Below, piece by piece: positions 1-64,000 of a DNA stretch of 64,000 nt. The notes below the pieces were generated by a model that saw nothing but the letters and a program-made list of their open reading frames with translations, was not told the DNA's origin and searched no databases. The stretch is from a virus. Location: the IMG/VR virus record IMGVR_UViG_3300025853_000043; one strand, 5' to 3'. The first letter of the stretch is position 1. Each line of letters opens with the position of its first letter. Both the position numbers and the translations under genes were made by a program.

Positions 1-1
1 A

Positions 2-847
2 GGACTAGTATTTGCTTCTTTTTATGGTGTATTAAATGCAATCGAAGATGTTGAACAAGATATTGACAACGGAACTATAGATCAAGATGAAGGTGCTGAA
101 ATTGTAAATGTTCTTAAAGCACAACTTGCTTTGTGTTTAATCATGTCTTTAATGGTTATCTTTAGGAATGGTGCTTTACTTGGTAAACTAATATCATACA
201 TTAGACCTATTATTAGATTAATTGCAGCTGGTGCAACGGTAAGTGTTGTAGGTACCATACCGGGTATCATTGCGCTGTTAGCAAATGAAGTTGCTTGGGG
301 TTTAGTTATCTATGCACTAAGTTCACCTACCGTACAACGATCTGTTGCCGAATTCATTGCTGGCTCATTATTAGGACCTGTTATAGCAGAAGCTGGAAAA
401 TATGCAGGTACAGCAATGCAGTTCTTAAACCAAGCTAGTGAAGAAATGCTTGGTGTTAGCATTAGAGACGGTGACTTGTTTGGTTTCGATCAAACTGAAA
501 GAGGTGGTAGAGAAGGAGAATACTATGCAAGTGCTGAATGGGCAAAGCTATTATTCCAAGACATGTTATTTCCTCCAGCACAGAAATCAATGTTAGTTCC
601 TTATATTACACCTGCAAGACGTGAAGGACTATTAGAAGAAGCGTTTGGATTAACCAATCCTACACAAAACCAACCACAAAACCAACAACCGCCAACAACT
701 CAACCTGATGCAACAGATCCTGATGCAACAAGTTCTAATTCAGATGCAGTATCAAGGAAAGCAGATATTGAACGCAGTTTACAAAATACAGACTATTATA
801 ATAATCCTAGTTACACAAGGGCACAACCTGTTAGTGGACCACGTTAA
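2..847 (+). CDS. Hypothetical protein, 5'-truncated by the window edge; hydrophobic middle and P/Q/N-rich C-terminus
   Basis: The frame of ORF 131..847 is open from base 2 (GLVFASFYGVLNAIEDVEQD...); no family recognised. Confidence 0.7.
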   Translation, partial: GLVFASFYGVLNAIEDVEQDIDNGTIDQDEGAEIVNVLKAQLALCLIMSLMVIFRNGALLGKLISYIRPIIRLIAAGATVSVVGTIPGIIALLANEVAWGLVIYALSSPTVQRSVAEFIAGSLLGPVIAEAGKYAGTAMQFLNQASEEMLGVSIRDGDLFGFDQTERGGREGEYYASAEWAKLLFQDMLFPPAQKSMLVPYITPARREGLLEEAFGLTNPTQNQPQNQQPPTTQPDATDPDATSSNSDAVSRKADIERSLQNTDYYNNPSYTRAQPVSGPR

Positions 848-1023
848 AGCAGCGGCATACGAGAATTTTTTGTATTTTCAATATTATCTTTAATAATTCT
901 ACTCATAATTTCTTGATCTTCAATATCAGTATTATATAGCAGGTCGTTATATTGTACGCTGCCTCTCATGTACCAGCATATTCTATATGCGCTATCCTTG
1001 ATTGTTTTTATTTCATTTTCCAT
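844..1023 (-). CDS. Small gp51-like / tail-chaperone C-terminal ORF (59 aa, absent from the ORF track)
   Basis: Hand translation MENEIKTIKDSAYRICWYMRGSVQYNDLLYNTDIEDQEIMSRIIKDNIENTKNSRMPLL*. It lies directly downstream of the gp26-like gene, as gp51 does in T4-like phages. No clear SD; the frame stays open upstream across the gp26 end. Confidence 0.7.
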   Translation of the reverse strand: MENEIKTIKDSAYRICWYMRGSVQYNDLLYNTDIEDQEIMSRIIKDNIENTKNSRMPLL

Positions 1024-1029
1024 TTCTTT

Positions 1030-1083
1030 GGCTAACGATAGGATAGCATCGTTATTTAAAGTCGTTAGCCTGTTGCGAAAAAA
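1030..1083 (-). other. Candidate -1 programmed ribosomal frameshift signal
   Basis: In-frame heptamer T TTT TTC (1083-1077), 6-nt spacer, then stem GGCTAACGA (1070-1062) / TCGTTAGCC (1038-1030). Confidence 0.65.
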
Positions 1084-1904
1084 TCTGATGCGTCTAAGCT
1101 AACTTTTAATTTACTTTCGTGTTTACACTTTTCGCAAGTAACATCTTCAGTTGGTACTTGCCAAACGGTTGTGTTATGTTCAATAACTTCTTTTATTTTT
1201 GTAAAATATTTGACATCATTTTCATTCATAAACTCAATTATTTCATTGGTATTGCTTTCTTTTTGTCCGTCAACTTCTACAGATTCAATTTGTCTAAACA
1301 AAGTCATTACGGTTAGTTCATTAATTTTTTGAACAATGCTTTGAACAAATTTTTCTTTTTCAGTTTCATCTTTGATATTAGCACTTTCTTGAGAAACTGC
1401 ACGTTGATAAGCTACACTTGTTTTTTGAATGTCTGTCCATTCTTCGTATGTTAATGGACGTAAATTAAAAATAAAGTCATCAATTTGAACACGATCTTTA
1501 TACTCTAATGTATGGAAAAAATCTAAATAATTTCTTAAATTAATTTCATAAGCATTATCTTCACCGCATCTTATACAATTTTTATGTACGGTCATTGTTT
1601 CACCGTAAGTTGCCATTCTAATACCAAGTAATAATGTATCGATGTCTAATACTCTAAGTTTCATTGGATTTAAAATAGATGGAACACAACTGCGTATGTT
1701 ACTAGCTGTGGCTTCTCCGTTTACTAATGCATCAGGAGTTTTAAACAATATTTCATCGCTGGCAGTCATACTATAAACTGCTAGATCAGAAACAACACCG
1801 TTAGAGACAATCGACTCATTATACCATTTTCCGTTACTAGGTAAGTTTATAAAAAGTTTAGGTTGTCTACGGTATTTTTTTAAAGGACTTTCTTCGTTTG
1901 TCAT
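1065..1904 (-). CDS. gp26: T4 gp26-like baseplate hub / tail assembly protein
   Basis: RQPKLFINLPSNGKWY, MTASDEILFKTPDALVNG, two CxxC pairs (CIRC, CEKC); divergent from the tape measure gene. Confidence 0.75.
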   Translation of the reverse strand: MTNEESPLKKYRRQPKLFINLPSNGKWYNESIVSNGVVSDLAVYSMTASDEILFKTPDALVNGEATASNIRSCVPSILNPMKLRVLDIDTLLLGIRMATYGETMTVHKNCIRCGEDNAYEINLRNYLDFFHTLEYKDRVQIDDFIFNLRPLTYEEWTDIQKTSVAYQRAVSQESANIKDETEKEKFVQSIVQKINELTVMTLFRQIESVEVDGQKESNTNEIIEFMNENDVKYFTKIKEVIEHNTTVWQVPTEDVTCEKCKHESKLKVSLDASDFFATG

Positions 1905-4079: not shown

Positions 4080-5834
4080 ATGAGTTGGAAAAAATATTTT
4101 ACTCCAGTTCCAACTGCTGACAATAGAAATGGCAGTTATTCGCCATTTTCTATGCGAGGTACAGGTAACGTAGGTCCTGCTGCTGCAAATTATTCTTCTC
4201 ATTTGCCTGACGTATATGTAGGGTCTCCAAATCGTATTGAACGTTATAATCAATACAATACAATGGATAGTGATAGTGAAGTTAATGCTGCACTAGATAT
4301 TCTTGCTGAGTTTTGTTCACAAAAAAACAAACAAAACGATACACATTTTGAAATTGATTTTAAAGGATCACCTACTAACAGCGAAGTACAAGTTATAGGG
4401 CAATATCTAAAGCAATGGTGTAAATTAAATCAATTTGAAACACGTATGTTTAGAACAATACGTAATGCATTTAAATATGGCGACCAATTTTTTATTAGAG
4501 ATCCACAGACACAAAAATGGTATCACGTTGATCCTAGTCAAGTAACAAAAATTATTGTTAACGAAAGCGAAGGAAAAAAGCCTGAGCAGTATGTTGTTAA
4601 AAATTTAAATTTTGCATTTGAAGCACTAGAAGCAACACCTTTAAACACAACTAATAGTTACGGACCTGGAGGAACAAGTCCAGGATATCAAACGGTTACA
4701 AAACAAAGCCAAACAGGTAATCATACACCAAGTGGTAACACAAGTAGATTTGCACAAGAACATGATGAAACTTATGTAGATGCAAATCATGTTGTACATT
4801 TGTCAATGAGTGAAGGACTTGATCAAAACTTTCCATTTGGTAATTCACTATTAGAAAGTATTTTTAAAGTATACAAACAAAAAGAATTATTAGAAGATGC
4901 GATTATTATCTATCGTGTACAACGTGCGCCAGAGCGCAGAGTATTCTACGTTGATGTGGGTAACATGCCTTCACACCTTGCTATGCAATTTGTGGAGCGT
5001 GTAAAAACGGAAATACACCAAAGACGTATCCCATCCAAGACAGGTGGTGGCACAAATGTTATAGACTCAAGTTATAATCCTCTGTCAATCAACGAAGATT
5101 ACTTCTTTCCACAAACTGCTGAAGGGCGTGGCTCAAAAGTTGAAACACTTCCGGGTGGTACCAACTTAGGAGAAATTGATGACCTTAGATACTTTACTAA
5201 TAAGTTGGTACGCGGCTTACGTATCCCAAGTTCGTACTTACCAACTGGAGCAGATGACGGTGCTTCACAATACAATGATGGACGTGTGGGTACTGCCTAT
5301 ATTCAAGAACTTCGCTTTAACAAATACTGCGAACGTTTGCAATCCATGGTTGAAGAAGTATTCAACAAAGAGTTCAAACTATTCTTAGGTTCAAAAGGTG
5401 CAAATATTGATTTTGCAATGTTTGACTTAAGGTTAACACCACCACAAAACTTTGCAGCATATAGACAAGCAGAACTTGATAACAACAGAATAGGAACGTT
5501 TACGCAAATGGCAGGTATACCTTATATCTCAAATAGATTTGCTATGCAACGTTTCTTAGGATTAAGTGCAGAAGAGATTGCAGAAAACGAACGTTTGTGG
5601 AGAGAAGAGAACGACGAAAATCTAGTAGATCTAGTTAACGATGACATGGCAGGTGAAATGCGTGGTGCAGGCCTTAGCGGTGCTGACCTTGCAGGAGACC
5701 TAGGTGGTATGGAAACTGATCTAGAAGGAGACTTGGGCGGCATTGATGGCGGCACTGGAGAAGCACCGGCAACAAATACAGAAAATGATTTAGGCGGAAC
5801 ACCAGCACCTACTGAAACGGCACAAACTATATAA
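4080..5834 (+). CDS. gp20: Portal protein (T4 gp20-like)
   Basis: LLEDAIIIYRVQRAPERRVFYVDVGNMP, EDYFFPQTAEGRGSKVETLPGG, LRIPSSYL; acidic Gly-rich C-terminal tail. Confidence 0.95.
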   Translation: MSWKKYFTPVPTADNRNGSYSPFSMRGTGNVGPAAANYSSHLPDVYVGSPNRIERYNQYNTMDSDSEVNAALDILAEFCSQKNKQNDTHFEIDFKGSPTNSEVQVIGQYLKQWCKLNQFETRMFRTIRNAFKYGDQFFIRDPQTQKWYHVDPSQVTKIIVNESEGKKPEQYVVKNLNFAFEALEATPLNTTNSYGPGGTSPGYQTVTKQSQTGNHTPSGNTSRFAQEHDETYVDANHVVHLSMSEGLDQNFPFGNSLLESIFKVYKQKELLEDAIIIYRVQRAPERRVFYVDVGNMPSHLAMQFVERVKTEIHQRRIPSKTGGGTNVIDSSYNPLSINEDYFFPQTAEGRGSKVETLPGGTNLGEIDDLRYFTNKLVRGLRIPSSYLPTGADDGASQYNDGRVGTAYIQELRFNKYCERLQSMVEEVFNKEFKLFLGSKGANIDFAMFDLRLTPPQNFAAYRQAELDNNRIGTFTQMAGIPYISNRFAMQRFLGLSAEEIAENERLWREENDENLVDLVNDDMAGEMRGAGLSGADLAGDLGGMETDLEGDLGGIDGGTGEAPATNTENDLGGTPAPTETAQTI

Positions 5835-10715: not shown

Positions 10716-10744
10716 AAAATAGGCCCTACGGGGCCTATTTTTTT
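10716..10744 (+). terminator. Intrinsic terminator after MCP
   Basis: aaaataggccc-tacg-gggcctatttt followed by a T run. Confidence 0.9.
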
Positions 10745-10757
10745 GGTATATATTACA

Positions 10758-11597
10758 ATGAAGTTTAATGTTAATAAACATATTGAATATAGAAACAATC
10801 GATTTACCAAAGTATCAATATCTAATCCTAAGTTATTAGGATTAGCTACAATAGAAATTAATCCAACAGAATTATGCAACAGAACTTGTAGTTTTTGTCC
10901 TAGAGTTAATCCTTTATTATATCCAAATCGTAATTTAAATATGACAATAGAAACAGCTCAATTAATTGTTGAACAATTATTAGATGCTGAGTATAATGGA
11001 GATATTAATATTACAGGATTTGGCGAACCATTATTAAATAAAGACATTGTACAAATATGTACTATATTTTCTAAACATTATCATACTGAATTAATAACAA
11101 ACGGCGATAATATTTTAAATGGTAAAATTACTTTACAAGATTTAGAATTCTTAGATTTATTAATTATTGATTGTTACGATGGCAAAGAACAAGTAAAAAA
11201 ATTTAAAAATTTACTTAAAAATAAAAAAAATAAATTTATATTGCGTCCACATTATGACACTGGAGATCCTGCATTAATTAATCAATATGGATTTAACAAC
11301 AGAGGTGGATTATTATACAAAAAATCTAACAGCAATCCTTGTTATATGCCGTCATATAAAGGATTTATAGATTGGAATGGAGATGTAAGACTTTGTTGTA
11401 ATGATTGGAGTAGGAAGCAATTACCATTTGGAAATATACATAATAATACATTTTCAAAAATATGGATGAATAATAATTTTGTAAAATTAAGACAAGAATT
11501 ATACAACGGTAATAGAAATTTTAGTAATGCTTGCGAGACTTGTGATGTATGTGGTACAAAAGTAGGAAAAAATAGTGCTGAATTATTTTTAAGCTAA
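10758..11597 (+). CDS. Radical SAM protein with SPASM/twitch domain
   Basis: CNRTCSFC motif, GFGEPLL, C-terminal C...DWNGDVRLCCND...CETC. ATG at 10758 preferred over the track's TTG at 10743. Confidence 0.88.
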   Translation: MKFNVNKHIEYRNNRFTKVSISNPKLLGLATIEINPTELCNRTCSFCPRVNPLLYPNRNLNMTIETAQLIVEQLLDAEYNGDINITGFGEPLLNKDIVQICTIFSKHYHTELITNGDNILNGKITLQDLEFLDLLIIDCYDGKEQVKKFKNLLKNKKNKFILRPHYDTGDPALINQYGFNNRGGLLYKKSNSNPCYMPSYKGFIDWNGDVRLCCNDWSRKQLPFGNIHNNTFSKIWMNNNFVKLRQELYNGNRNFSNACETCDVCGTKVGKNSAELFLS

Positions 11598-14673: not shown

Positions 14674-17600
14674 ATGAGTTTTATTAAGAAGCAGTCATTA
14701 CACAAAAGAAAAGTAGGAGATAAGTCATTTATTCTTACTGCCGACGGCAACATTGAGATGAATCTTGCTGCCGGTAAAACATTTACGGTAGATGCAGATT
14801 TCATAGCAACTGGAGATGTATCAGGTCCAAAAACAGAAAATGTTTTTTATGTTACAAAAGATGGTAGTGATGATAATGACGGCCGAAGTTCTGACGGTAA
14901 AGGTGCATTTGCAACAATTAAAAAAGCAGCTGAAGTAGCACCTTCTGGCTCAACAATCATTGTTGCACCAGGCGATTATTTTGAAGAAAATCCTATTACA
15001 CTTAAAGACTTTGTAACCATTACAGGACAAGGTGAATTACGTAATACAAGATTATTTCCAAAAAATAATACATCAGACTTCTTCTATATGGGTAATGGCT
15101 GTTACTTGTATCAACTTACATTTAGGGCACTTCGTGCGCCAGGATGGTGTGTAAAGATTAGACCAGGTGCATTGGTTACAACATCTCCTTATGTACAAAA
15201 CTGCACAAATATGAACGGTCCTTGGTTAAACGACGGTACTGAATTTATACCGTTTGAAACCGTTCAAATTGAAGGAATTGAACCGGGCGCAAGACCACTA
15301 ACGTTAGCAGATAATCCAAGTCTTCCATTTGACAAACAAGTAAACTTAACCGGTGGCGGTGGCGGGATGTTTGTCGACGGCGACGAATATGATCCAGCAT
15401 CACTTGTGTTTTCATTTGTTGCAGACGCATTTACACAAATTGCTCAAGGTGGTCCAGGATTTGAAGTTACTAACTTTGGTTATACTCAGATTGTTAGTTG
15501 CTTCTCTGTTTTCTGTTCAACAGGATTCAAAACAACAAAAGGCGGCTATTTAAGTATCTCTAACTCGGTATCTGACTTTGGTACATTTGGTTGTGTTGCA
15601 GATGGATTTTATCCAATTGCATATACACAAGCTGTGCCAACTGAAGATTATTTTAGTACCGTTGGTAGTATTACAATCAATCAACCAGGAGTTGGATATA
15701 CCAGCAATCCTACAATTACAATCGAATCCCCAGACGGTGCAGGTGGTGTAACAGCTACCGCTACTGGACAAGTCGACCTTACCACAGGACAATTAGCTGC
15801 TATTACAATCACAAATAATGGTAGTGGATATACATCAGTACCAACCGTTACAATTACAGGCGGTGGCGCAACTATTCAAGCAGAAGGTACCGTAAACTTA
15901 ACAACAAATAGTGTTATATCATTAGCAAGTTTACGAGATAAACCACAAACTGGTAGTATTATAAAATTTGATGACGACGATACATATTACTACATTACAG
16001 CAAACTCAATTACAAAGACGCCATTTAATTATAATGAAGAAACTTGTAAAAGAGATGTAAGACGTATTGTTGATGCTGTAACAGGTGATATTGTTTTAGG
16101 AACATATTATCAAACAACAGCAGCCGCTACTAGCTATTTACGTAGTACATCAACAAAGGTTATTTTAGATCAATTAGAACCTACAATATATGCAATTGAA
16201 GCTGCTAGAGATCAAATGAAAGCAAGAACAACAAATCTTGCAATGAAAGAAGAAATTGATCAGCGTTTTAATATTATTACAACAACTTTAGCAGCAGGTG
16301 ACAGCACTGAAACAGAATTTGTTGGTAGTGACTTTGTAAATGCATTAAATGATATTAATAGTATTGATAATGAAATAATTGAAGCAAAAAATAACATTCT
16401 TGCTAATAGAGATTTTATTATAGAAGAACTTACTGCTTATATTAATGATCAGTTTACAGAACTAAGTTATAACCAAACAAAATATACTAGTGAAATGTCA
16501 GAATTTATTACAAGTATGGCATACTACGTAGGCTTTAATGGAAGCGATCATAAAGTTTTAAGGGCTGCTCGCGAATGGAGCAATAGTAGAGCAAGATTTA
16601 ATGATATGATGATATCTAGCTTTAGATATTTACAACAACGTTTCCTTGCATTATCTGAAGTACAAGCAAGTGCAGTTGCAGTTACAAATGTTAATGAAGC
16701 ATTTGAACAACTTGCAAACATTATTGACGAAGGCGATAGTGCAGGTATTACTACAGAATTTCCGGCAGCAGTTGGTACTAATCAAAATGAAATTGATGCT
16801 AGAGATCAATTAATTGCAAATATGGATTTCTTGAAAGCAGAATTTATTGCATATCTTGATAGCATTAACTCAACTATAAGTTATACTCAAAGTAAGTTTG
16901 AACAAGATGTTGAAAATGCTGTAAATAGTGTAATTTACGATATTATGTACGGAGGTAATACTGCAACTAAAAAAGAAGCTGATTATTACTTCAATAGCGA
17001 AACTTGGAGTTCTAATTATACTCAAGTTGAAAGACAAGCTATTATTGACTCATGGGCAAGAACACGTTTTGCAATGCAACGTATTGTAAGAGGATTGTCA
17101 ATTACTCCAACTACTGGTAATGCGCAAACACAAGATTTTACAAGTGGCACTGCAACTCAAATCGAAGCAAATATTGCTGATAGCTTGATTCAGTATTACG
17201 AAACCGTTTTGACCGATTTAGCATTAACTAATCTACCACTTGATGTTTTACCGTTATACGATGATGAATCTGTATTACAACAAGCAGCAGCAAATACTAT
17301 TTTAGCACAAAGAGATAATTTCATTGAGGATGCAATTGCTTATAATTTAGCAAACAACCCAACTCTAACATATGATGTATCAAAATGTAAAAGAGATGTA
17401 GAATATATTATAGATGCAATATACAGCGATGCACAATTAGGCACAAACCATCGCAGTATTACTGCTGGTTTAGCTTACCAGAGAGCTAATGTTGCTTATT
17501 TGAATACAGAACAAAAACCTGCTACAATTATTGCTATGCGTGAAGCAAAACGTTTGTTAGTTGCAGCGGCAAATGGTAATTCAACATTCCAAACTGATGT

Positions 17601-20600: not shown

Positions 20601-23600
20601 CATTGCGACACTTATTGCAACTAGAGCTTATTTCTTAGGTACAGCTAATTATTTGCCAGATGAACAAAAAGATATAACCGTTGCAGCATATGAACATTTA
20701 GCTCAAGTTGCAGCTGATTGTATAGAAGGTACAGCAGTTACTCCGTCTGTAGGAAACACAGAACCACAAGTTCTTGGCGGAGCATATGGTACATCTACAG
20801 AATCAGGTCAAGCTGTATTATTGTTTAGAATTCCAAAAAATGCAATTGACAACGGAACACTTGTAGGTACACCTGCTGAAATACAACCAGATTTTGCTTG
20901 GTTGCCAGCAACTATAAAATCAGCAGCAACAGACATGTTAGCTCAAAAAGTTAATATTCAAAACGGTGTTATTTCTTATATTACAGATAATTTAATTGAT
21001 TTTGAATATAATATTGTAAAGTGTAAAAGAGATACAGGATACATTATTGAAGCATTAATATATGATTTAATGTATGGTGGTAACAAACAAACACGTAGAG
21101 CTGCACAAGCATATTACAATGGTGCAATTTTAGGAGCAGCAAAAGTTGGTAATGCAGATCAAGTTTTAGTTACAGCATATTCATATTACTACTTAGGTGA
21201 TATATTAGCAAAAGTTGCAAAGAACGAAACGGTTACAAAAAGTTACAACAATACTGAAGTACAGGTAATTACAACACCCGATAGTGATGATACAACAGCA
21301 ACTAGAATTGAATTGTTAATTGATAGAATAGCTTTAAGTGTTCTTGAAGGATACACAACAGGTTGGCAAGAGAATAATCATAACTACGAATTAGGTAGTG
21401 GTGCTTACTTAACTGAAAGAAACACTATATTAGCAGACTTAGAAAGTATTGTAACAACAACAATTGACGACTTAAATGCTGAATACGGTGGTGAAGCAAC
21501 TATTACTATCTTCCCAGGTGTTATTAGTGTAACACAAGATAAAAAGGCAAATCTTTATAATGTTAGTACAATTTCTACATCGGGACATGCATTTGAATAT
21601 GTAGGTGCAGGTGTTGATTATAATGCTCTACCTTTCTTTGGCGGCACAGCAATTTCAGAAAACGAAATTGTACAACTTAACCAAGGTAAAGTATTTGCTG
21701 GTGGTACGGTTGACCAAATTGGTAACTTTAGAGTTGGTGACTTATTTGCAGTTAATGCTCTAACAGGTGCGATTGATCTAAATGCTAACCAAATTAGTTT
21801 AGAAGGCTTGACAAGTGTTGGTCCGTTTATTAGAAATGGTATTCCAGTTGGTGTCGAATTAAAAGAGGTTAGCGACAATACTAACTTACTTGCAAGTACA
21901 GGTACTCAAGACTTCCAAACTGCTCCTACACAAAGAGCTGTTGGAATTTATGTAGAAAATAGATATCTAAACAAATTAACTGGTGGTACGGTTACTGGTA
22001 ATATTGTATTGAACGGTGACTTTGATGTTAACGGTGATGTTATTAGTACTGATACAAGTGGTACATTTAACCTACTTAATACAAGTGCTACTACTATAGA
22101 AGCATTTGGTGATGCAACTACCATTAACATGGGTGCGCCTACAGGTACATTTACAATTAATCCAGATTTAGTTGTAGAAGGTGATTTAACCGTTAATGGT
22201 GATATTGTACTTACAGGTGATTACTCACTAAACATTCCAGATGAGAGCTTACAAGCGTATAGCATCAGTACTGAAGGTAGCTTAGACTACGTTAGTATTA
22301 ACACAAGAACAGACGAAGAAAAAATTACTTTTGGAGAAAGACCACAAGTTGAAATTCAAAATCTAATAGAGTCTACAAGCACTACAACAGGTGCATTAGT
22401 AGTTGATGGCGGTGTTGGAATAGCAAAAAGTTTGTATGTAGGTATTGATTTTACTGCTAATGGTAATGTTATTCTTGGCGATGATAGAGCAGTTGACACT
22501 CTTGATATTAATGCTACAACAGATATTGATGTTCCAGATAACGCAACCGATGTGTTTAGAATTCATGAAAATATTAATGATTACATTAGTATAAACACAA
22601 CAGATAATTCAGAAGTTGTAGAATTTGGCGCAACTCCTAATGTAATAATTCTAAATGCAGATGATGCTACTGATAATGTAACTGGTGCATTACAAGTTAC
22701 AGGTGGTATTAGCACTCAAGTTAACGTTCATGCAGGACAAGATATTGTTGCTGACAGAGACATAATTGCAGACAGAGATATTGAAGTAAATGGTACTAAT
22801 ATCATTACTGACGAAACTGGAACATTTAATGTCTTTAACACAAACGCAACTACAATCAATGCATTTGGCGATGCTACTGCAATCAACATTGGTGCAGATA
22901 CCGGTACATTAACCGTTGCAAACGAAATAACAATTTTTGATAGTGTGGAAGCAATCCAAATTCCAGTCGGTACTGATTTAGAACGTCCAACAGAAGCAAC
23001 AGGTCAAATACGTTTTAACACTGACAGCACAAGTTTTGAAGGCTATGACGGAACAGCGTGGGGTAGCTTAGGCGGAGTAAGAGATGTTGATCAAGATACA
23101 TTTATTAGACCAGAATCTACTCCAGGTGCAGACGAAGATACTATTACATTCCATACAAACGATGTTCAAAGGATGTCATTAGGCAATACTTTGTTAAACA
23201 TTGATGCTACCGTAAAAGTAACAATAGATAGCACAGAAGTATCATCTAATTATAACACAGGCGCATTAGTAGTAGCCGGAGGTGTTGGTATTGCTAAAGA
23301 CTTGTATGTTCAAGGATTTATTAGTGGTAATAATTCGGGTGTGTTACAGCTAACAGATCTTGCAAGTGACAAGATTTTAATCAAAGCTGACACAATTGAA
23401 TCTCCAGAATCTATTAAATGGATATCAAATGCACCTGATAGTGCAGCAGATGATATTGTTTATCCAATCAGTTTAGCACACCATAGTGTAAGCGGATCGC
23501 CAGCTGTTGGAAGCGGTACAGGACTAAGATTTGAACTTGAAACATCAAACAGCAATTATGAAATTGGCGGACAAATTGATTCAATTGTGCAAGACATAAC

Positions 23601-24172: not shown

Positions 24173-27100
24173 ATGGCAACAACAATTAGACACAAGCGAA
24201 GTGCGGTCGCGGGTAAGCAACCGTTAGTTTCTCAATTAGAATCAGGCGAATTAGCAATTAATACAGCAGATGGTAAAGTATACCTATTGCGTGATGATAA
24301 TACCGTACAAGATATTACTAAAAGAATTTTTGAAGGTAACTCAGAAGTAAAAGTTGATGACCTTGGCGATAGTACGGTAGCTCAAATTAGTGCTACGGTT
24401 AATGGTAATGAAGCATTAACAATCACTAATGCAGGATTTAATTTTAAAAATAATATAGATATTGAAAATGCAGGTACCTTAACTTTTAGAGAACTTACAG
24501 CTTCAGGTGAAGACGGTGTAACTTTACAGCCTCCAAGTACACTAGACGCAGGTTATACTTTAACATTGCCACCTAACAAAGGTTCAGTCGGACAAATTTT
24601 AGCAGTTAATGCTAGTGGAGAATTGTTTTTTAATGACGCAGATATTTTTGGCGGAAACGTTCTCTATGTTTCGCAAGAGCAAGGTGACGATGAAAACGAT
24701 GGACAAAGTGCTCCAGTTAAAACGGTTAAACGTGCATGTCAAATTGCCTCAGGACTAGTTTATAATTCAGATGGTAGTATCAACTTCCGTAGAATCAACA
24801 TCAAAGTTGCGGTTGGCGATTATACTGAACAAAACCCAATCATTGTTCCTGATAACACGGTTATTAAAGGTGATGGTTTGCGTGGTTGTATTATTCGCCC
24901 TGCAAACGCTAACTTAGATATTCTACGTGTCAGAAACGCTTGTTACTTTGGTGAATTTACTTTCCGTGATGGTGTCGACGATAACTTCGTGCCATTGATT
25001 ACAGGTGATTATTGTGTTGCATTTGATGATCCGGATGCAGTAGATGTGACAGATAGAAATACCTATCCAAACTTACCTAATACTAAACCAACTATTACAA
25101 CATCACCATATATTCAAAACTGCTCTATTCTTTCTTTCCTTGGGTTAAATGGTGCTAAGATCGATGGTAGTAAAGTTGAATCTCCTAACGTTCCTGTTAA
25201 CCAAATTGAAGCAGAAAATCCAGTTGTTGGCGCAATACCTGAACAAGGTAAATCGATGGTTGCCAACGCATTTACCATGCTTTCGTTTGGTGGTACTGGG
25301 TGGCGACTAACTAACGATGCTTATGCACAGATCGTTTCGTGTTTCCAAATTTTCTTGCTTAACGGTGTGTATACACAATCAGGTGGTTATTGTTCAATTA
25401 CTAACTCTGCTACAAACTTTGGTTTGTATGCTCTACGTTCAAGTGGTTATTCTCCAAAAGCATTCTCTTTTGACCGTTCGTTTGTAACTCAAACTGGTTC
25501 TAGTGAAGGTAAACAAACGGTTAGTGTTGTTGGTATTAATAGAGATGCTCCTGTTGAAGAATTTATTTTACGTTTTAGAGATCCAGATTATAAAACTGCT
25601 CATGATTTACTTCTTTCAAATAAACTATCTATTGCAGAAGATACGGTAACATGGATTAATGCACAAATTGCAGCTTCATCACCTAGTATATGGGCTGGAT
25701 TTACATATAATGAAGACAAGTGTCGTAGAGATACTAGACTATTAGTTGATTCTATTAGATATGATATTATTTTTAATAGCAATTATAGAACAATCAGTTC
25801 TGCACTTCGTTATTTTAGTGGAAGTTTTACAAATTTTGCAGACCAAAAAGATCAACATATTGCAGCGTTTGCACAAGCAAAAGCATACACAGCAAATATA
25901 TTAAATGATGCAACTGCAACAAGTAGATCAAATGCACTTTGGGATGAAATTATTGACATTTTAACAAATGGTGATGCAAATACCGTTCCAGGCGATGCTG
26001 TTGCTGATGCTTATAGTTTTCCTGATCCGACTAACTATAACACATCTTACCTAGTAGGATATGGTGATGCAAGAGATCAACTGCAAGCAAACAAACAATT
26101 TATTATTGATGAAATAACAGCTTGGATCGCTGTTCAAGTTGCTGCTGAAACTCCTCCTTTTGCTGGTTCATTTACATATGACGCAGCAAAATGTGAAAGA
26201 GACGTAGGATTAATTATAGACGCATTAATTTATGATATTACATATGGCGGCAACTTACAAACAAAACGTGCAGCAGAAGCATACTTTGTTGGCACAACTG
26301 CACAATACGGAGCAAACCAAAAAGAAGAAACTATTGCAGCTTACGAAAGACTTAGAGACGTAATAGCTGATGTTATTTTAGAAGTAGCAGTTACTAAATC
26401 AACAGGTAATGCTCAAACACAAGATACAAGTAATACAGCAGGTAGTGCAGCAAGTAAAACATTTGCAGTGGCTAGAATTCAAGAAATTATTGATTTTATT
26501 GATGGTGGTGGTGTAAACGAAGTAACAACTATCGAGCCAGGCACAGATTGGGTTTCAGGTAATAATGAATTTGAAGCATATAATAGACTTAACAACGAGG
26601 GTGCTGTTAATATTGCTCAAAATACAACTGAATGGATCAATGAACAAATTCAAGCCAATATTTGGTATGGATTTACATACGATCAATCTAAGTGTCAACG
26701 TGATACACAATTGATTGTTGAAGCTGTTGCAAAAGATACTTGGGATACTGGTAACAGATATTCACGTAGTGCTGGCCTATCTTATTATACACAAAACTTA
26801 CAAGACTCGACTAGAATAAGCATTAGTGGACAAGAATTACAAACAATTGCAGCTATTGATCAAGCAGCAGTATATGCTAACACGTACATTACTAGTACAA
26901 GTATTGCTGTACAAGATTTTGTTAATACTAGATTTGGAATCGTTACAACGGTTATTAATGATCCAAATGATTTACCACAACCAACTGAAGTAAGTAGTGA
27001 AGGTGATATTACAAACTCTTACAAAACAACACCAACAGAAACAACGTTTAATGCTGCTACAAACGTAAACGCTGATACAAATATTTTTACTATTACTAGT

Positions 27101-46662: not shown

Positions 46663-46692
46663 AATTGGGGTCAAGGAAACTTGGCCCTAATT
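46663..46692 (+). terminator. Hairpin after the sheath, abutting a late promoter
   Basis: aattggggtcaag-gaaa-cttggccctaatt; GATAAATA follows at 46694-46701. Confidence 0.6.
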
Positions 46693-46725
46693 TGATAAAT
46701 ACTTGTGTATTAAGGAGAACAATAG

Positions 46726-47364: not shown

Positions 47365-47384
47365 TAATTAAATGAGATTGTCTT

Positions 47385-47417
47385 AAATAAGGAGTCTTTA
47401 CGGCTCCTTATTTTTTT
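47385..47417 (+). terminator. Intrinsic terminator after the tube gene
   Basis: aaataaggagtc...ggctccttattttttt; GATAAATA follows at 47419-47426. Confidence 0.85.
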
Positions 47418-47430
47418 GGATAAATACTAT

Positions 47431-48738: not shown

Positions 48739-48739
48739 T

Positions 48740-49114
48740 ATGAGTTCAGTAACAGATGCAAGTATTAATCCATCAACAGATAGTGCAAGTGAAATAAAAC
48801 AATTCTTTGATCAGTATTTTTCTAATCCAATACAATATTCTAGTAACGAAGTTGATAGTGTTGTAGGATTTTTTACAAAACGTGGTTTTGATCAACAAGC
48901 CAGTATCAGTGTAGCAACTACATTATTACAACAAGCAAAAGTAGAAAAGAAACCAATCTTTCAATTATTAGATACACTGAAAGGTTTAGATAGTATACAA
49001 TTAAGTAAATTAATTGCAGCAATACTTAATAGTAATCGTAGTTATACAAGTGCTTTAGGATATGTTAATAATGAAAATGGTGAAACAACCGAAAGTAGGA
49101 ACATTATTGTTTAA
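48740..49114 (+). CDS. Hypothetical virion-cluster protein
   Basis: 124-aa ORF in the operon. Confidence 0.7.
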   Translation: MSSVTDASINPSTDSASEIKQFFDQYFSNPIQYSSNEVDSVVGFFTKRGFDQQASISVATTLLQQAKVEKKPIFQLLDTLKGLDSIQLSKLIAAILNSNRSYTSALGYVNNENGETTESRNIIV

Positions 49115-49551
49115 TGGCACGCTTTGCACAAGGAAAGTATACTTTAAAAAATCCTTCTAAGTACATTGGTGGTAGAACACCGACTTATAGAAGTAGTTGG
49201 GAATTTGCTTTCATGCGTATGTGTGATACTAATGAAAGTATTACAAAATGGGCCAGTGAAGCAATAAAGATTCCATACAGAAATCCTTTAAGTGGAAAAT
49301 TTACAATCTACGTTCCAGATTTTTTTGTTGTTTACACTGATAGAAATGGCAAGCAACATGTAGAACTTATAGAAGTAAAACCTAGTAATCACACTCTTAA
49401 AGAAAAAACTGGCCGCAGTAGAACTAACCAATTACATTTTGCAGTTAATCAAGCCAAATGGACTGCTGCTAGAGCATATTGTAAACAAAAAGGTATGACG
49501 TTTAGAATAGTTACTGAAAATGAAATGTTTCACCAAGGTAAAAGAAGATGA
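49114..49551 (+). CDS. gp4: Head completion nuclease (T4 gp4-like, TnsA-N fold)
   Basis: YRSSWEFAFM, WASEAIKIPY, YVPDFFV, LIEVKP, NQAKW...F.IVTE. Confidence 0.88.
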   Translation: MARFAQGKYTLKNPSKYIGGRTPTYRSSWEFAFMRMCDTNESITKWASEAIKIPYRNPLSGKFTIYVPDFFVVYTDRNGKQHVELIEVKPSNHTLKEKTGRSRTNQLHFAVNQAKWTAARAYCKQKGMTFRIVTENEMFHQGKRR

Positions 49552-50114: not shown

Positions 50115-50139
50115 TAGTAGCATATAATGGATAACTACT

Positions 50140-50631: not shown

Positions 50632-50653
50632 TAGTATAGTTTAGGATACGACA

Positions 50654-51208
50654 ATGAAAAAATTTGCAGATTATTTAATTGAATCTAAAAAAACATATGA
50701 ATTTAAAATCGGAGTTGCTGGCGAGCTGCCTGAAGATTTTGAAAACCGCATGGAAACTGCACTACAAAAGTTTGCTTGTACAAAGATGAGTGCAGGTAAA
50801 AAAACACCTATTCAAGAACGTCCGTTGGACTTTCCTCAATTACAAAATACAGACGTTACCTACTATGAAGTAGAATGTTCATATCCTACAACAATACAAG
50901 TTTTACAAGAATACATTGGTAGTTGCTGTGCTATTCCTCAAAGCCACATTATTGTACGTAATCCAAACGAACCACAAGAACTATATCAGCAAGAAGATAC
51001 AAAAGACGAATATGTAGCAAAACTTACACAAGAAGACATGGGCGGAGAAAGCGCACAAGAAGATGCAGGCAGCGCTCGTGTTATGAATTTGTTGAAAGAA
51101 TTAGAAACAGCCCGTAAAGAAAGATCAAACGATTATGTTGGTGAGGCTCCTGCAGGAGAGAGCAAAGATATCGGCGATGCTGAAAACAGCAAGGCAGTGT
51201 TATCATGA
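50654..51208 (+). CDS. Hypothetical, probably head-associated protein
   Basis: N-terminal YLIE|SKK resembles a gp21 cleavage site. Confidence 0.6.
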   Translation: MKKFADYLIESKKTYEFKIGVAGELPEDFENRMETALQKFACTKMSAGKKTPIQERPLDFPQLQNTDVTYYEVECSYPTTIQVLQEYIGSCCAIPQSHIIVRNPNEPQELYQQEDTKDEYVAKLTQEDMGGESAQEDAGSARVMNLLKELETARKERSNDYVGEAPAGESKDIGDAENSKAVLS

Positions 51209-52677: not shown

Positions 52678-52704
52678 AATAGCGCCTTAGGGCGCTATTT
52701 TTTT
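52678..52704 (+). terminator. Intrinsic terminator
   Basis: aatagcgcc-ttag-ggcgctatt plus T run; GTTAAATA follows at 52706-52713. Confidence 0.88.
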
Positions 52705-52717
52705 GGTTAAATACAAC

Positions 52718-54298
52718 ATGAGTAAAAGTTTAGACGGTGTATTAACAAAAAAAGCAAATCAGAAAGAAACATATACAGAAACACAAATTCAAGATCTATT
52801 GAATTGTATGGATCCTGATGAAGGTTACTTGTATTTTGCAAAACGATTTGCACACATTCAGCATCCAGTAAAAGGAAAACTTTTGTTTGATCCTTACGAA
52901 TATCAGTTGAGGTTGATGCATTCGTATCATAATTTTAGATTTAATATTAATATGATGCCTAGACAAACAGGTAAAACTACATGTGCTAGTATATATTTGT
53001 GTTGGTATGCAATGTTCAATCCAGATCAAACTATTCTTATTGCAGCACACAAATACACAGGTGCGCAGGAGATTATGCAGCGTATACGCTATGTATATGA
53101 ACTATGTCCTGATTACATAAGAGCAGGTGTAACTAGTTATAATAAAGGTAGTATTGAGTTTGAAAATGGGTCACGTATTATCAGTCAAACAACAACAGGC
53201 ACTACTGGACGTGGTTTGTCTATCTCGCTACTATATTGTGACGAGTTTGCGTTTGTGCAACCAAACATTGCTGAAGAATTTTGGACTTCAATTTCGCCTA
53301 CACTAGCAACAGGTGGTAGAGCTATTATTACAAGCACACCAAACTCAGACGAAGATACATTTGCAGTTATATGGAAACAAGCTGAACAAAAGTTTGATGA
53401 GCATGGAAATGAACAAGAAATTGGTATAAATGGTTTTCACGCTTATAGAGCTCATTGGAGTGAACACCCCGACCGTGACGACGAATGGAAAGTTAATGAA
53501 ATAGGTCGTATTGGTGAAGAAATGTTTCGTAGAGAATATGGCTGTGAATTTTTAATCTTTGATGAAACACTGATCAATAGTATAAAACTTGCTGCAATGG
53601 AAGGCATTGAACCTACATTGCATATGGGTCAAGTGCGATGGTACAAAAAACCTGATGCAAAAAAATCTTATGTTATAGGATTAGATCCTGCTATGGGAAC
53701 AGGTGGAGATTTTGCTGCTATACAAGTGATAGAACTGCCTACATATGAACAAGTTGCTGAGTGGCAACATAACACTACAGCTATTCCAGGACAAATTAGG
53801 GTTTTGCGAGATATTTGTAGTTATATTGCAGAAGAAACAAAAACTACTTCTAATATTTATTGGAGCGTTGAAAACAATGGTATAGGAGAAGCAGCACTAC
53901 TTGTAATACAAGATTTTGGCGAAGAAAACATTCCTGGATTATTCATTAGTGAACCAATACGAAAAGGTCATGTAAGAAAATTTAGAAAAGGTTTTAATAC
54001 TACACATGGAAGTAAAACTACAAGTTGTGCTAGATTAAAAACAATGATTGAAAATGATAAACTAATATTAAAAAGTAAGCCTTGTATTAGTGAACTTAAA
54101 GCATACATAGCAGCAGGTAGTAGTTTTCAAGCAAAACCAGGACATCATGATGATTTAATTAGCAGTTTAATTTTAACATTAAGAATAATGAGCGTTATGA
54201 AAGATTGGGATCCTACGGTTTATAATACGTTTAGCCAAATTGAAGCAGATGAAGAATATGAAATGCCCATGCCTATCTTCGTAAGTAGCAGTTATTGA
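52718..54298 (+). CDS. gp17: Terminase large subunit (T4 gp17-like)
   Basis: PRQTGKTT Walker A, LLYCDEFAFV Walker B, IITSTPN, IGLDPAMG, HHDDLI; ATG at 52718. Confidence 0.96.
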   Translation: MSKSLDGVLTKKANQKETYTETQIQDLLNCMDPDEGYLYFAKRFAHIQHPVKGKLLFDPYEYQLRLMHSYHNFRFNINMMPRQTGKTTCASIYLCWYAMFNPDQTILIAAHKYTGAQEIMQRIRYVYELCPDYIRAGVTSYNKGSIEFENGSRIISQTTTGTTGRGLSISLLYCDEFAFVQPNIAEEFWTSISPTLATGGRAIITSTPNSDEDTFAVIWKQAEQKFDEHGNEQEIGINGFHAYRAHWSEHPDRDDEWKVNEIGRIGEEMFRREYGCEFLIFDETLINSIKLAAMEGIEPTLHMGQVRWYKKPDAKKSYVIGLDPAMGTGGDFAAIQVIELPTYEQVAEWQHNTTAIPGQIRVLRDICSYIAEETKTTSNIYWSVENNGIGEAALLVIQDFGEENIPGLFISEPIRKGHVRKFRKGFNTTHGSKTTSCARLKTMIENDKLILKSKPCISELKAYIAAGSSFQAKPGHHDDLISSLILTLRIMSVMKDWDPTVYNTFSQIEADEEYEMPMPIFVSSSY

Positions 54299-62580: not shown

Positions 62581-63320
62581 TTATAGGTGTAGTAGGTATA
62601 GGTGTTGTTGGAAAAGCAAATGTTAACGGCTTTAAAAGGTTAGGACACACCGTACTTGAGCACGATGTCAAATATAATACAGCTTTAAGAGATGTGTTGA
62701 CTGCAGAAATTATTTTTATTTGCACTCCTGAAGACCAAGTTAATAATGTTGTAAAAGATATTAGCCTGTATGATTATAAAGGAGTAGTAGCAATTCGAAG
62801 CACAACTACTCCGGGTACTACAGATGAACTAATAAAAAAACATAACATAGATATTTGTTTTGTACCTGAATTTCTTAGACAAAATTATGCTGACAAAGAT
62901 TTTGAACAATGTGATTTATTAGCTATTGGTACAAATAATTTAAAAATAGGACGTAAAGTAAGAAACGCTTTTGGTAAGTTACCTAAAAATGTAGATTATA
63001 TGATGCCAGCAGAAGCAGAAATATTGAAATTATATAATAACTCTTATGCAGCACTTAGAGTTGTGTTTGCTAATATTATGTACGATATTGCCAACAAATA
63101 TGATGCAGATTATAGTGTTATAAAAAATGCGTATAAAAAAACAAATAAAACAAGTGGAAATTATTTAGATGTAAATAAAAATTTACGTGGTTATAGCGGT
63201 GCCTGTTTACCTAAAGACACTTTAGCTCTTTCTAAATTAATTAATGATCTTAAATTAGATTACACACTTGTACAATCGATTCATAACGATAATTTAAAAT
63301 TACCAAAAAATAAAACTTAG
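62577..63320 (+). CDS. UDP-glucose/GDP-mannose dehydrogenase family, lacking the C-terminal domain
   Basis: GIGVVG, IFICTP, IRSTTTPGTT, PEFLR, AEILKLYNNSY, GYSGACLPKD; only 247 aa. Confidence 0.85.
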   Translation: MIIGVVGIGVVGKANVNGFKRLGHTVLEHDVKYNTALRDVLTAEIIFICTPEDQVNNVVKDISLYDYKGVVAIRSTTTPGTTDELIKKHNIDICFVPEFLRQNYADKDFEQCDLLAIGTNNLKIGRKVRNAFGKLPKNVDYMMPAEAEILKLYNNSYAALRVVFANIMYDIANKYDADYSVIKNAYKKTNKTSGNYLDVNKNLRGYSGACLPKDTLALSKLINDLKLDYTLVQSIHNDNLKLPKNKT

Positions 63321-63331
63321 TAAAGTACGCA

Positions 63332-63339
63332 TATAAATA
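63332..63339 (+). promoter_or_regulatory. Late promoter TATAAATA
   Basis: Exact consensus 4 nt before the ATG at 63344. Confidence 0.65.
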
Positions 63340-63343
63340 CTAC

Positions 63344-64000
63344 ATGAAAGTAGTACTAGTTACAGGTGGATTTGATCCTCTACATTCCGGGCACATTGCC
63401 TATTTTAAAGCAGCACGAGAACTTGGAGATCACTTAGTAGTTGGTCTTAATTCTGATGCTTGGCTTACACGCAAAAAGGGTCGTCCGTTTATGTCAATTG
63501 ATGAACGGGCTGCCATTGTTAAAGAACTAGAATGTGTAGATGAAGTTATAGCATTTGACGATAACGACAACACAGCATGTCTTGCTATAGGGCAAGTTTT
63601 ATCTACAAAGGCAAGTAGTTGGAAACTTATCTTTGCTAATGGCGGTGATAGAACAAATAAAACAACACCAGAATTTGAAACTTGGGGCAATCATCCTGAT
63701 GTTGAATTTGCCTGGGGTGTTGGCGGTAAAGATAAGAAAAACTCAAGCAGTTGGATACTCAAAGATTGGAGTCAACCTACAACAGAACGTGCTTGGGGCA
63801 AATACACTATATTAGATAAAGGTGAAGGTTGGCAAGTTAAACAACTTGAGTTTGCAGCAGGTAAAGCACTTAGTGATCAACGACACTTTAAACGCAGCGA
63901 ACACTGGCACGTTGTTAATGGCGTTATCAATATGTTCCTTGAAGATAAAATAGGAAGAAGAACTAGCACACTATTAACGCCAGGTGATAGTATTGACATT
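63344..64000 (+). CDS. Cytidylyl/adenylyltransferase fused to a cupin (PMI type II C-terminal-like); runs off the window end
   Basis: Hand translation MKVVLVTGGFDPLHSGHIAYFKAA...GLNSDAWLTRKKG...FANGGDR, then RAWGKYTIL...QVKQLE...LSDQRHFKRSEHWHVVNG. Confidence 0.85.
   Translation, partial: MKVVLVTGGFDPLHSGHIAYFKAARELGDHLVVGLNSDAWLTRKKGRPFMSIDERAAIVKELECVDEVIAFDDNDNTACLAIGQVLSTKASSWKLIFANGGDRTNKTTPEFETWGNHPDVEFAWGVGGKDKKNSSSWILKDWSQPTTERAWGKYTILDKGEGWQVKQLEFAAGKALSDQRHFKRSEHWHVVNGVINMFLEDKIGRRTSTLLTPGDSIDI

What the first reader, a model, noticed from the sequence alone, without database searches (positions are those of the whole stretch)
1..64000. Apparent total avoidance of the palindrome ACWGT, with ACSGT common
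Seen: reading the window by eye I found no ACAGT or ACTGT, while ACCGT and ACGGT are frequent. Thr-Val junctions appear to be written ACC/ACG-GTN although ACA/ACT dominate Thr elsewhere (e.g. 15258, 21229, 24301, 31448). A mononucleotide estimate at ~35% GC gives about 65 of each W form in 64 kb. The parts (ACAG, CAGT, ACTG, CTGT) and other palindromes (GATC, GANTC, CCWGG, GGWCC, GAATTC) occur freely. Knowledge: ACNGT cutters (HpyCH4III/TaaI type) cannot explain this because the S forms are kept, and I know no well-characterised ACWGT-specific enzyme. Inference: strong selection from a host restriction or DNA-targeting defence, or a phage nuclease that degrades host DNA while sparing its own.
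Basis: partly seen in the sequence, partly recalled or inferred. Interest (0 to 1): 0.75.

Follow-up and report, generated by a model that had tools for sequence, protein, structure and literature searches.

The report
Jumbo phage purged of ACWGT sites
An uncultured estuarine jumbo phage has removed every copy of the five-base word ACWGT from at least 192 kb of its genome while its close relatives keep hundreds. This is the classic footprint of escaping a host restriction enzyme, here one whose specificity I could not find described.

Summary
The window has 0 ACAGT and 0 ACTGT. Expected counts are about 106 (Markov), 98 (dinucleotide shuffle) and 111 +/- 6 (synonymous-codon shuffle).

I walked outwards on identical metagenome contigs and assembled 191,927 bp of the same T4-like jumbo phage. 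It still has 0 sites. Expected counts there are 298 +/- 12 (codon shuffle) and about 560 at the density seen in relatives.

- **All contexts are purged.** All 175 Thr-Val junctions read ACC/ACG-GT. The other two reading frames and the non-coding DNA are also site-free.
- **Relatives are normal.** About 3.4 Mb of relatives sit at expectation.
- **Other depleted lineages exist.** One or two further lineages are site-free, and one 120-kb genome is depleted to roughly 0.4 of expectation.
- **Real mutations, lasting selection.** Sites were lost through substitutions at all five positions. Selection held through about 20% divergence between two site-free lineages.
- **Other palindromes** are also avoided, in lineage-specific patterns.

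The best reading (about 0.75) is restriction-site avoidance driven by an orthodox Type II-like host system that cuts ACWGT but not ACSGT. The two recognisable phage nucleases (GIY-YIG and TnsA-like) are clade-wide and do not track the trait.

The host and the enzyme remain unidentified. Two earlier first-reader notes of this scan report the same avoidance on other windows, which look like sibling contigs. This is a known kind of phenomenon and an unusually clean new case.

The parts
1..64000 (.). ACWGT-free stretch. The whole window is the central third of a 191,927-bp site-free reconstruction of the same phage (window = positions 96,662-160,661 of that reconstruction).
   Evidence: for the window. 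for the extension.
15259..15263 (+). Example Thr-Val junction written ACC-GT inside the 3129-aa ORF. A second ACCGT lies at 15249-15253.
   Evidence: The rule across all junctions is shown.
21229..21233 (+). Example Thr-Val junction written ACG-GT.
24302..24306 (+). Example ACCGT at a Thr-Val junction near the start of the 3617-aa ORF.
31448..31452 (+). Example ACGGT at a Thr-Val junction.
52703..54298 (+). Large terminase gene. Used as a marker to collect 80 relatives and to place the site-free lineages on a tree.
4080..5834 (+). T4-type portal gene. It identifies the element as a T4-like jumbo myovirus whose nearest cultured kin are PA5oct-like phages, Phosso and Atu_ph07 at about 50% identity.
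49114..49551 (+). TnsA-like PD-(D/E)XK nuclease of 145 aa. Considered as a phage-borne ACWGT nuclease and rejected.
   Evidence: PF08722, E 7e-24; orthologues in normal-count relatives are up to 84% identical, the copy in site-free L036 is only 66% identical, and no residue is diagnostic of site-free lineages.

Best explanation
This lytic T4-like jumbo phage lineage replicates in a host population that carries a sequence-specific double-strand DNA nuclease, most probably an orthodox Type II restriction-modification system. That enzyme recognises the quasi-palindrome ACWGT and discriminates against ACSGT. Unmethylated incoming phage DNA is cut at each site, so each site lowers infection success. 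Every site can be removed by a synonymous change: ACW-GTN to ACS-GTN; xAC-WGT to xAT or AGC/TGC/TCN; A-CAG-T to CAA; A-CTG-T to another Leu codon. Selection has therefore driven the count to zero at almost no protein cost and keeps it there. Shown: the total, genome-wide, frame- and strand-independent, lineage-specific and long-maintained absence, and the mutational routes taken. Inferred: that the agent is a host restriction enzyme, its type, and its exact specificity.
For: (1) The word is absent. There are 0 sites against 111 +/- 6 in the window. There are 0 against 298 +/- 12 (minimum 256) in 191,927 bp, where it is the only missing 5-mer.
(2) Both orientations, all three frames and non-coding DNA are purged. 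In the 192-kb reconstruction, 175 of 175 Thr-Val junctions use ACC/ACG, against 91% ACA/ACT elsewhere. In the first 101 kb, AGT after xAC is 0 of 88, TGT after xAC is 0 of 16, A|CAG|T is 0 of 79, and A|CTG|T and non-coding sites are 0. A normal relative uses the W forms freely. This points to recognition of double-stranded DNA, not of RNA or protein.
(3) Relatives sit at expectation: 2193/2008, 2218/2265, 2420/2427 and 1923/1975 observed/expected in four surveys; G002 332/327 and G005 667/648. The word therefore has no clade-wide function, and the loss is derived.
(4) At orthologous places the sites are destroyed at any of the five positions, mostly G4>A and C2>T. These are ordinary mutations filtered by selection, not a centre-specific artefact.
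(5) Selection lasted. The roughly 2,200 substitutions separating two site-free lineages create 0 sites. Random placement of the same substitutions creates 14.5 +/- 3.6, and normal relatives at the same distance carry 28-29.
(6) A graded state exists. G001 has 86 sites against 198-235 expected. Normal density is confined to a 2025-aa ORF and its neighbour in the variable fibre block.
(7) Other palindromes are avoided in lineage-specific patterns: GCTAGC, AAGCTT, CATG, GTGCAC, CTGCAG.
(8) In a survey of about 4000 viruses, avoidance concerned overwhelmingly orthodox Type II sites and non-temperate dsDNA phages, and complete or near-complete elimination was seen in about one-tenth of genomes (PMC6286503).
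Against: No host is known, and no enzyme or methyltransferase of this specificity was found. The literature search was negative, and the stored part of a REBASE-derived table lacks the motif. About 10-18 kb of the 201.7-kb source contig was not seen, and CheckV-style estimates for relatives suggest the genome may be larger. Many ORFs have no annotation. Contigs L004, L097 and L255 join site-free to site-rich sequence. If these are real genomes rather than assembly chimeras, site-rich recombinants survive somewhere.
Confidence: 0.75

Rival explanations
1. The phage lineage encodes its own ACWGT-specific nuclease. It would shred host DNA or the DNA of co-infecting site-rich relatives, and the phage would be immune because it has no sites.
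For: The genome holds two small nucleases: a GIY-YIG protein of 141 aa like T4 EndoII/SegE and a TnsA-like protein. From my own knowledge, GIY-YIG restriction enzymes for 5-bp palindromes exist (Hpy188I). Site-rich relatives co-occur in the same samples (L085/L097 in ERZ27275062). Part of the genome is unseen and many ORFs are unannotated.
Against: The GIY-YIG protein is 96-98% identical in relatives with normal counts, for example L102 with 56 sites in 20 kb. The TnsA-like protein shows no residue diagnostic of site-free lineages. The Pfam labels I have name no other nuclease and no DNA methyltransferase; they cover most but not all ORFs of the 192 kb. The partly depleted genome G001, with 86 sites, is hard to reconcile with a self-encoded cutter.
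Confidence: 0.07
2. The agent is a host or mobile-element DNA-targeting defence that is not an orthodox Type II system. It could be a Type IIS/IIG/III-like or novel nuclease that reads ACAGT as an asymmetric word. ACAGT and ACTGT are the same double-stranded word in two orientations, so sequence alone cannot tell these apart.
For: The same sequence evidence as for the main explanation applies. No enzyme class can be read from the avoided word, and no known enzyme matches it.
Against: In the published survey, avoidance is not seen for Type I and IIG sites and only very rarely for Type III (PMC6286503). Known 5-bp words with a central W (CCWGG, GGWCC, GCWGC) are Type IIP sites, from my own knowledge. 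Both orientations are fully purged, which a Type III system would not need.
Confidence: 0.12
3. ACWGT is a signal for the phage's own machinery in this lineage, such as a packaging, replication or transcription site that must not occur by chance. Alternatively, the absence results from a context-specific mutational bias or a sequencing or assembly artefact.
For: None directly. It is considered because a total absence can in principle come from a strong internal signal.
Against: A signal would have to occur at least once, and there is not a single copy in 192 kb. Relatives with the same machinery carry the word at chance frequency in all frames. Replacements hit all five positions, so there is no single mutational mechanism. 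The same result appears in independent JGI, ENA and IMG/VR assemblies from many samples.
Confidence: 0.03

Closest known systems
Restriction-site avoidance in lytic dsDNA phages. Surveyed in Rusinov et al. 2018 (PMC6286503). Textbook cases from my own knowledge: Staphylococcus phage K without GATC, and Bacillus phages without GGCC.
   Same: A short palindromic word is eliminated completely or nearly so. The phage is non-temperate and has dsDNA. The elimination is achieved by synonymous changes. It is specific to some lineages or hosts, and other palindromes are under-represented too.
   Different: The host and the cognate enzyme are unknown here. The avoided word matches no characterised specificity that I could find. 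The genome is a jumbo phage, so roughly 300-560 sites had to be removed. A graded series is preserved among close relatives: normal, about 0.4 of expectation, and zero.
ACNGT enzymes (HpyCH4III / TaaI / Tsp4CI type).
   Same: The outer four bases (AC..GT) and the 5-bp length are the same.
   Different: These enzymes accept any central base. Here ACSGT is not avoided but enriched twofold (166 against 84 +/- 8). The agent must therefore read the central pair as A:T.
W-centred Type IIP systems (EcoRII/BstNI CCWGG, AvaII GGWCC, TseI GCWGC).
   Same: The architecture of the word is the same: two symmetric dinucleotide arms around a central W. These are the systems for which phage avoidance is typical.
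   Different: The arms differ. In this window CCWGG and GGWCC are not eliminated (50 and 32 copies).
T4 host-DNA degradation by EndoII (DenA, GIY-YIG), with self-protection through modified cytosine.
   Same: The phage has a small GIY-YIG protein of EndoII/SegE type next to the gp46/47-like recombination nuclease genes.
   Different: Self-protection through absence of sites is not supported. The same protein, at 96-98% identity, is present in relatives with normal site counts.

Membership tests
Restriction-site avoidance against an orthodox Type II R-M system | The avoided word is a short (4-6 bp) palindrome or quasi-palindrome. | tested here: met
   ACAGT and ACTGT are reverse complements. 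Together they are the only missing 5-mers.
Restriction-site avoidance against an orthodox Type II R-M system | Depletion exceeds what composition, codon usage and protein sequence explain. | tested here: met
   0 against 110.9 +/- 6.2 in the window and 0 against 297.6 +/- 12.3 in 192 kb under synonymous-codon shuffles. 0 against about 98 sites under dinucleotide shuffles.
Restriction-site avoidance against an orthodox Type II R-M system | The depletion is independent of strand, reading frame and coding status, as expected for recognition of double-stranded DNA. | tested here: met
   All three frame contexts and non-coding DNA have zero sites. A normal relative has sites in all of them.
Restriction-site avoidance against an orthodox Type II R-M system | The depletion is lineage- or host-specific, and close relatives are not depleted. 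| tested here: met
   About 3.4 Mb of relatives sit at expectation. Site-free or depleted states occur in only a few lineages.
Restriction-site avoidance against an orthodox Type II R-M system | The virus is a non-temperate dsDNA phage. | tested here: inconclusive
   It has a T4-like virion and replication gene set, and no integrase appears among the Pfam labels seen. The genome is not complete and the lifestyle is not demonstrated.
Restriction-site avoidance against an orthodox Type II R-M system | A cognate endonuclease/methyltransferase pair of that specificity exists in the host. | not testable with these tools
Literature searches were negative.
ACNGT (HpyCH4III/TaaI-type) restriction | All four central bases are recognised, so ACSGT should be avoided as well. 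| tested here: not met
   ACSGT is enriched: 166 against 84 +/- 8 in the window and 390 copies in 192 kb.
Phage-encoded site-specific nuclease with self-immunity by site loss | A nuclease gene or allele is confined to the site-free lineages. | tested here: not met
   Both recognisable nucleases are clade-wide. The GIY-YIG protein is 96-98% identical in normal-count relatives. The TnsA-like protein has no diagnostic residues. Unannotated ORFs and the unseen 10-18 kb were not excluded.
Type I / Type III / BREX-like defence | The target is bipartite or an asymmetric word, and avoidance is rare or orientation-biased. | tested here: inconclusive
   The word is contiguous, 5 bp long, and purged in both orientations. 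That argues against Type I, Type III and BREX. An enzyme that reads ACAGT asymmetrically cannot be excluded from sequence.

The most novel reading that the evidence does not exclude
The site-free lineages carry, in the unseen end of the genome or among their many unannotated ORFs, an ACWGT-specific nuclease of their own. They would use it to destroy host DNA and the genomes of the site-rich sister phages that co-occur in the same samples. Genome-wide site loss would then be self-immunity, that is, a weapon in phage-against-phage competition rather than a defence footprint.
Probability: 0.07. Interest if true: 0.8.

Novelty: new member of a known kind. Interest (0 to 1): 0.45.

Why it matters
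Restriction-site avoidance is well known, but this case is unusually complete. Several hundred expected sites have been removed from a jumbo phage genome. Normal and partly purged relatives are preserved beside it, so the process can be followed step by step. It predicts a restriction specificity (ACWGT, not ACSGT) that I could not find described. The enzyme should sit in an abundant but unidentified estuarine bacterium. The motif is therefore a concrete handle for linking an uncultured, widespread jumbo-phage clade to its host: look for the genome whose DNA is methylated at ACWGT, or which itself under-uses the word. In G001, normal site density is confined to an ORF in the variable fibre block. 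This suggests that site density can date recently imported host-range genes.

Tried and rejected
- **No whole genome.** None is held for the window. Records behind assembly loci cannot be searched, and 5-mer patterns are too short for the genome search.
- **Near-identical DNA search** against GenBank phages found nothing.
- **Host from a recently acquired gene.** The phage metK is an insertion relative to G005 and G001. Its best bacterial matches are only about 50% identical and scattered over many phyla, so they are uninformative.
- **No tRNA genes** in the stretches scanned.
- **GIY-YIG nuclease as the agent:** rejected.
- **TnsA-like nuclease as the agent:** rejected.
- **Normal relatives protect their sites with a phage methyltransferase:** not supported. 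G005 has a PF01555 methyltransferase just beyond the left end of my reconstruction. However, 0 of 39 normal relatives with sequence at that locus carry it. Whether the site-free lineage has it could not be seen.
- **A longer motif in the partly depleted genome:** rejected. The flanks of the 86 remaining sites in G001 show no strict rule.
- **Centre-only misreading or editing (ACWGT read as ACSGT):** rejected by the replacement spectrum.
- **The moraphage paper (PMC12619734):** I found nothing linking it to this clade.
- **Walking left** was blocked by a 4637-aa gene. I bridged it through a homology search.
Full report
**1. The observation**

The window (64,000 bp, 35.8% GC) contains no ACAGT and no ACTGT. 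It contains 63 ACCGT and 103 ACGGT. A second tool also finds 0 matches on both strands, against 196.7 +/- 13.8 strand-matches (about 98 sites) in dinucleotide-preserving shuffles.

A maximal-order Markov model expects 106 sites. ACAGT/ACTGT are the only 5-mers that are absent although more than 8 were expected. It gives 110.9 +/- 6.2 (minimum 92 of 200 shuffles) against 0 observed, and it shows ACSGT enriched twofold (166 against 84 +/- 8). The four example coordinates hold ACCGT or ACGGT at, or within one base of, the stated places.

**2. What the DNA is**

The window is the virion module of a T4-like myovirus. It holds a T4-type portal, gp15-like protein, sheath and T4-type large terminase. 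Its flanks hold gp23-type capsid, prohead protease, baseplate, gp46/47-like and UvsX/RecA-like genes.

The closest cultured phages are jumbo phages at about 50% protein identity: PA5oct-like Pseudomonas phages, Sinorhizobium phage Phosso and Agrobacterium phage Atu_ph07. No GenBank phage matches at the DNA level. The window is 100% identical to a 201,730-bp JGI metagenome contig. The same phage occurs in dozens of other JGI, ENA and IMG/VR assemblies.

**3. The absence is genome-wide**

I walked outwards on contigs 99-100% identical in their overlaps and joined 191,927 bp. The window occupies positions 96,662-160,661 of this reconstruction.

- The count stays at 0.
- The Markov expectation is 305.
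- The synonymous-codon shuffle gives 297.6 +/- 12.3 (minimum 256).
- The density in normal relatives (2.92 per kb) would give about 560.
- ACAGT/ACTGT remain the only absent 5-mers.

The absence includes a roughly 12-kb block of small early-type ORFs with 43.5% GC. Relatives carry about 4.5 sites per kb in that block.

**4. Every context is purged**

In the 192 kb, all 175 Thr-Val junctions are ACC/ACG-GTN, while Thr is ACA/ACT in 91% of other positions.

In the first 101 kb:

| Context | Site-free phage | Elsewhere in the same phage |
|---|---|---|
| Ser after an xAC codon | never AGT (0 of 88) | AGT 48% |
| Cys after xAC | always TGC (16 of 16) | TGT 80% |
| Gln between ..A and T.. | never CAG (0 of 79) | CAG 13% (147 of 1155) |
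| Leu between ..A and T.. | never CTG | CTG 3% (72 of 2246) |
| Non-coding DNA | 0 sites | not applicable |

A normal relative (G002) uses the W forms freely in all these contexts and has 12 non-coding sites. Nearly all genes here lie on one strand, yet both orientations are missing. The constraint therefore acts on double-stranded DNA, not on mRNA or protein. Every occurrence can be removed synonymously, so the purge costs only codon preference.

**5. Relatives**

Four surveys of IMG/VR, using the terminase, GIY-YIG, AAA-ATPase and methyltransferase neighbourhoods, gave about 3.4 Mb of related contigs. Site counts there are at expectation: 2193/2008, 2218/2265, 2420/2427 and 1923/1975 observed/expected. 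Two large relatives are also normal: G002 with 332/327 in 105 kb and G005 with 667/648 in 236 kb.

The exceptions are these:

- **The window's own lineage.**
- **A second site-free lineage** (G003/L115/L196-198). It has 0 sites in about 28 kb and is sister to the window on a gp46 tree at 88% nucleotide identity.
- **Three short site-free contigs** (L034, L036, L041). On the terminase tree they fall in a different, well-supported clade. Whether they belong to the second lineage is unknown.
- **G001**, a 120-kb genome in a distant clade with 86 sites against 198-235 expected.

In G001 the background density is about 0.4 per kb. A 2025-aa ORF and its neighbour in the variable fibre block have the normal 3 per kb. 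The flanks of the remaining sites show no strict rule.

The state has therefore arisen at least twice. It exists in graded form, and it is derived.

**6. How the sites were lost and kept out**

Where relatives have a site, the window differs at any of the five positions. G4>A and C2>T are the commonest changes, and only a minority convert W to S. These are ordinary mutations filtered by selection. They are not a centre-specific editing or base-calling effect.

Between the two site-free lineages (p-distance about 0.2), the roughly 2,200 real substitutions create no site. The same substitutions placed at random create 14.5 +/- 3.6 (minimum 5 of 300). Normal relatives at the same distance carry 28-29. 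At 4 of 6 well-conserved ancestral sites the two lineages share the same replacement, against a baseline 5-mer identity of 35%. This fits a purge begun in their common ancestor, but the numbers are small.

Selection against the word is therefore old and continuing.

**7. Context: other palindromes**

GTGCAC, CTGCAG and CGCG are depleted in all three large genomes compared. Others differ by lineage:

| Word | Site-free phage (obs/exp or ratio) | G002 | G001 |
|---|---|---|---|
| GCTAGC | 0/10 | 1/11 | 15/16 |
| AAGCTT | 2/14 | 12/18 | 30/35 |
| CATG | 0.59 | 0.26 | 0.75 |

This is the usual landscape of restriction avoidance, with a different host repertoire for each lineage.

**8. Candidate agents inside the phage**

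*Nucleases.* A 141-aa GIY-YIG protein of SegE/EndoII type lies left of the window. It is 96-98% identical in relatives with normal counts, for example L102 with 56 sites in 20 kb. A TnsA-like PD-(D/E)XK nuclease lies in the window at 49114-49551. Its orthologues in normal relatives are up to 84% identical, the copy in site-free L036 is only 66% identical, and no residue is shared by the site-free copies alone. The Pfam labels available to me cover most, though not all, ORFs of the 192 kb. They name no other nuclease and no DNA methyltransferase.

*Methyltransferase.* G005 carries an N6/N4 DNA methyltransferase immediately beyond the left end of my reconstruction. None of 39 normal relatives with sequence at that locus has it. 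It therefore does not explain why relatives tolerate the sites. Whether the site-free lineage has it is unknown.

**9. Interpretation**

The best-supported reading is restriction-site avoidance. The hosts of these lineages carry a nuclease that recognises ACWGT in double-stranded DNA and spares ACSGT.

An orthodox Type II R-M system is the likeliest class. In a survey of about 4000 viruses, avoidance was essentially confined to such sites and to non-temperate dsDNA phages, and complete or near-complete elimination occurred in about one-tenth of genomes (PMC6286503).

An ACNGT enzyme is excluded because ACSGT is enriched. ACAGT and ACTGT are one double-stranded word in two orientations, so an enzyme that reads it asymmetrically cannot be excluded from sequence alone.

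I found no description of an ACWGT specificity. No held paper contains ACWGT as a whole word. The stored, truncated part of a REBASE-derived table lacks it, while it lists ACNGT, GTSAC and CCWGG. This is absence of evidence only.

**10. Open points**

- The host is unknown. The metK comparison was uninformative, and no tRNA genes were found in the stretches scanned.
- Some 10-18 kb of the source contig was not seen. Completeness estimates for relatives hint at larger genomes.
- Three contigs (L004, L097, L255) join sequence 99-100% identical to the site-free lineage with divergent, site-rich sequence at sharp boundaries. They may be recombinants or assembly chimeras of co-occurring lineages. 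Read mapping would decide.

**11. Earlier notes of this scan**

Two first-reader notes on other windows describe the same ACWGT avoidance with the same gene content: gp46, gp47, halogenase, capsid and giant fibres. They look like sibling contigs of this phage, so they are not independent evidence.

**12. Verdict**

The explanation is a known mechanism in an unusually clean and complete new instance. It comes with a testable prediction of an undescribed restriction specificity in an unidentified estuarine host.

Noticed in passing
L256:3514-21275; L340:10543-19246; L341:613-1809; window 10743-11597: About 20 radical-SAM/SPASM genes are packed into roughly 35 kb left of the window. They are mixed with Asn-synthase-like, AMP-binding, nitroreductase, FkbM-methyltransferase, Asp/Asn-hydroxylase and subtilase genes. 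One more radical SAM/SPASM gene sits right after the capsid gene in the window. This is a very large modification or biosynthesis cluster for a phage.
   Followed up: partly
L096:10001-11077: The phage encodes a SAM synthetase (metK). It is an insertion relative to G005 and G001. Its best bacterial matches are only about 50% identical and scattered over many phyla. It plausibly feeds the radical-SAM array.
   Followed up: partly
L202:14739-21458 and L205:1-3200 (right of the window): A roughly 12-kb block of small minus-strand ORFs has 43.5% GC against about 35% for the genome. Relatives (L223, L224) share the high GC. Contigs from many samples end within it, which suggests a hypervariable region or a genome end.
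   Followed up: partly
window 49114-49551: A TnsA-like PD-(D/E)XK nuclease of 145 aa sits in the tail/packaging block and is conserved across the clade. It may be the branch-resolving nuclease for packaging.
   Followed up: partly
L089:12846-13271 (-) and L089:13294-14937 (-): A GIY-YIG protein of EndoII/SegE type (141 aa) is clade-wide. The neighbouring Trp-halogenase-like gene is present in the window lineage but absent from the second site-free lineage (L196).
   Followed up: partly
window 14674-24063 and 24173-35026; L250:10001-23914: There are three giant ORFs of 3129, 3617 and 4637 aa. The 4637-aa family has more than 1800 relatives of 2.5-8 thousand residues in the protein database.
   Followed up: no
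G001 (L182-L188), 44772-50849: In the partly depleted genome only a 2025-aa ORF and its neighbour have normal ACWGT density (about 3 per kb against about 0.4 per kb elsewhere). This looks like a recently imported gene in the variable fibre block.
   Followed up: partly
L004, L097:1-7300, L255:1-8300: These contigs join sequence 99-100% identical to the site-free phage with divergent, site-rich sequence at sharp boundaries. They are either recombinants or assembly chimeras of co-occurring lineages.
   Followed up: partly
whole window and relatives G001, G002: Avoidance of GCTAGC, AAGCTT and CATG is lineage-specific. Avoidance of GTGCAC, CTGCAG and CGCG is clade-wide. GGATG/CATCC is also halved in the window (45 against 89).
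   Followed up: partly
G005 (L213:13515-14384): An N6/N4 DNA methyltransferase (PF01555, DPPY motif) is found in only about 41 IMG/VR loci. It lies just outside the left end of the 192-kb reconstruction. It is absent from 39 of 39 other normal relatives at that locus.
   Followed up: partly
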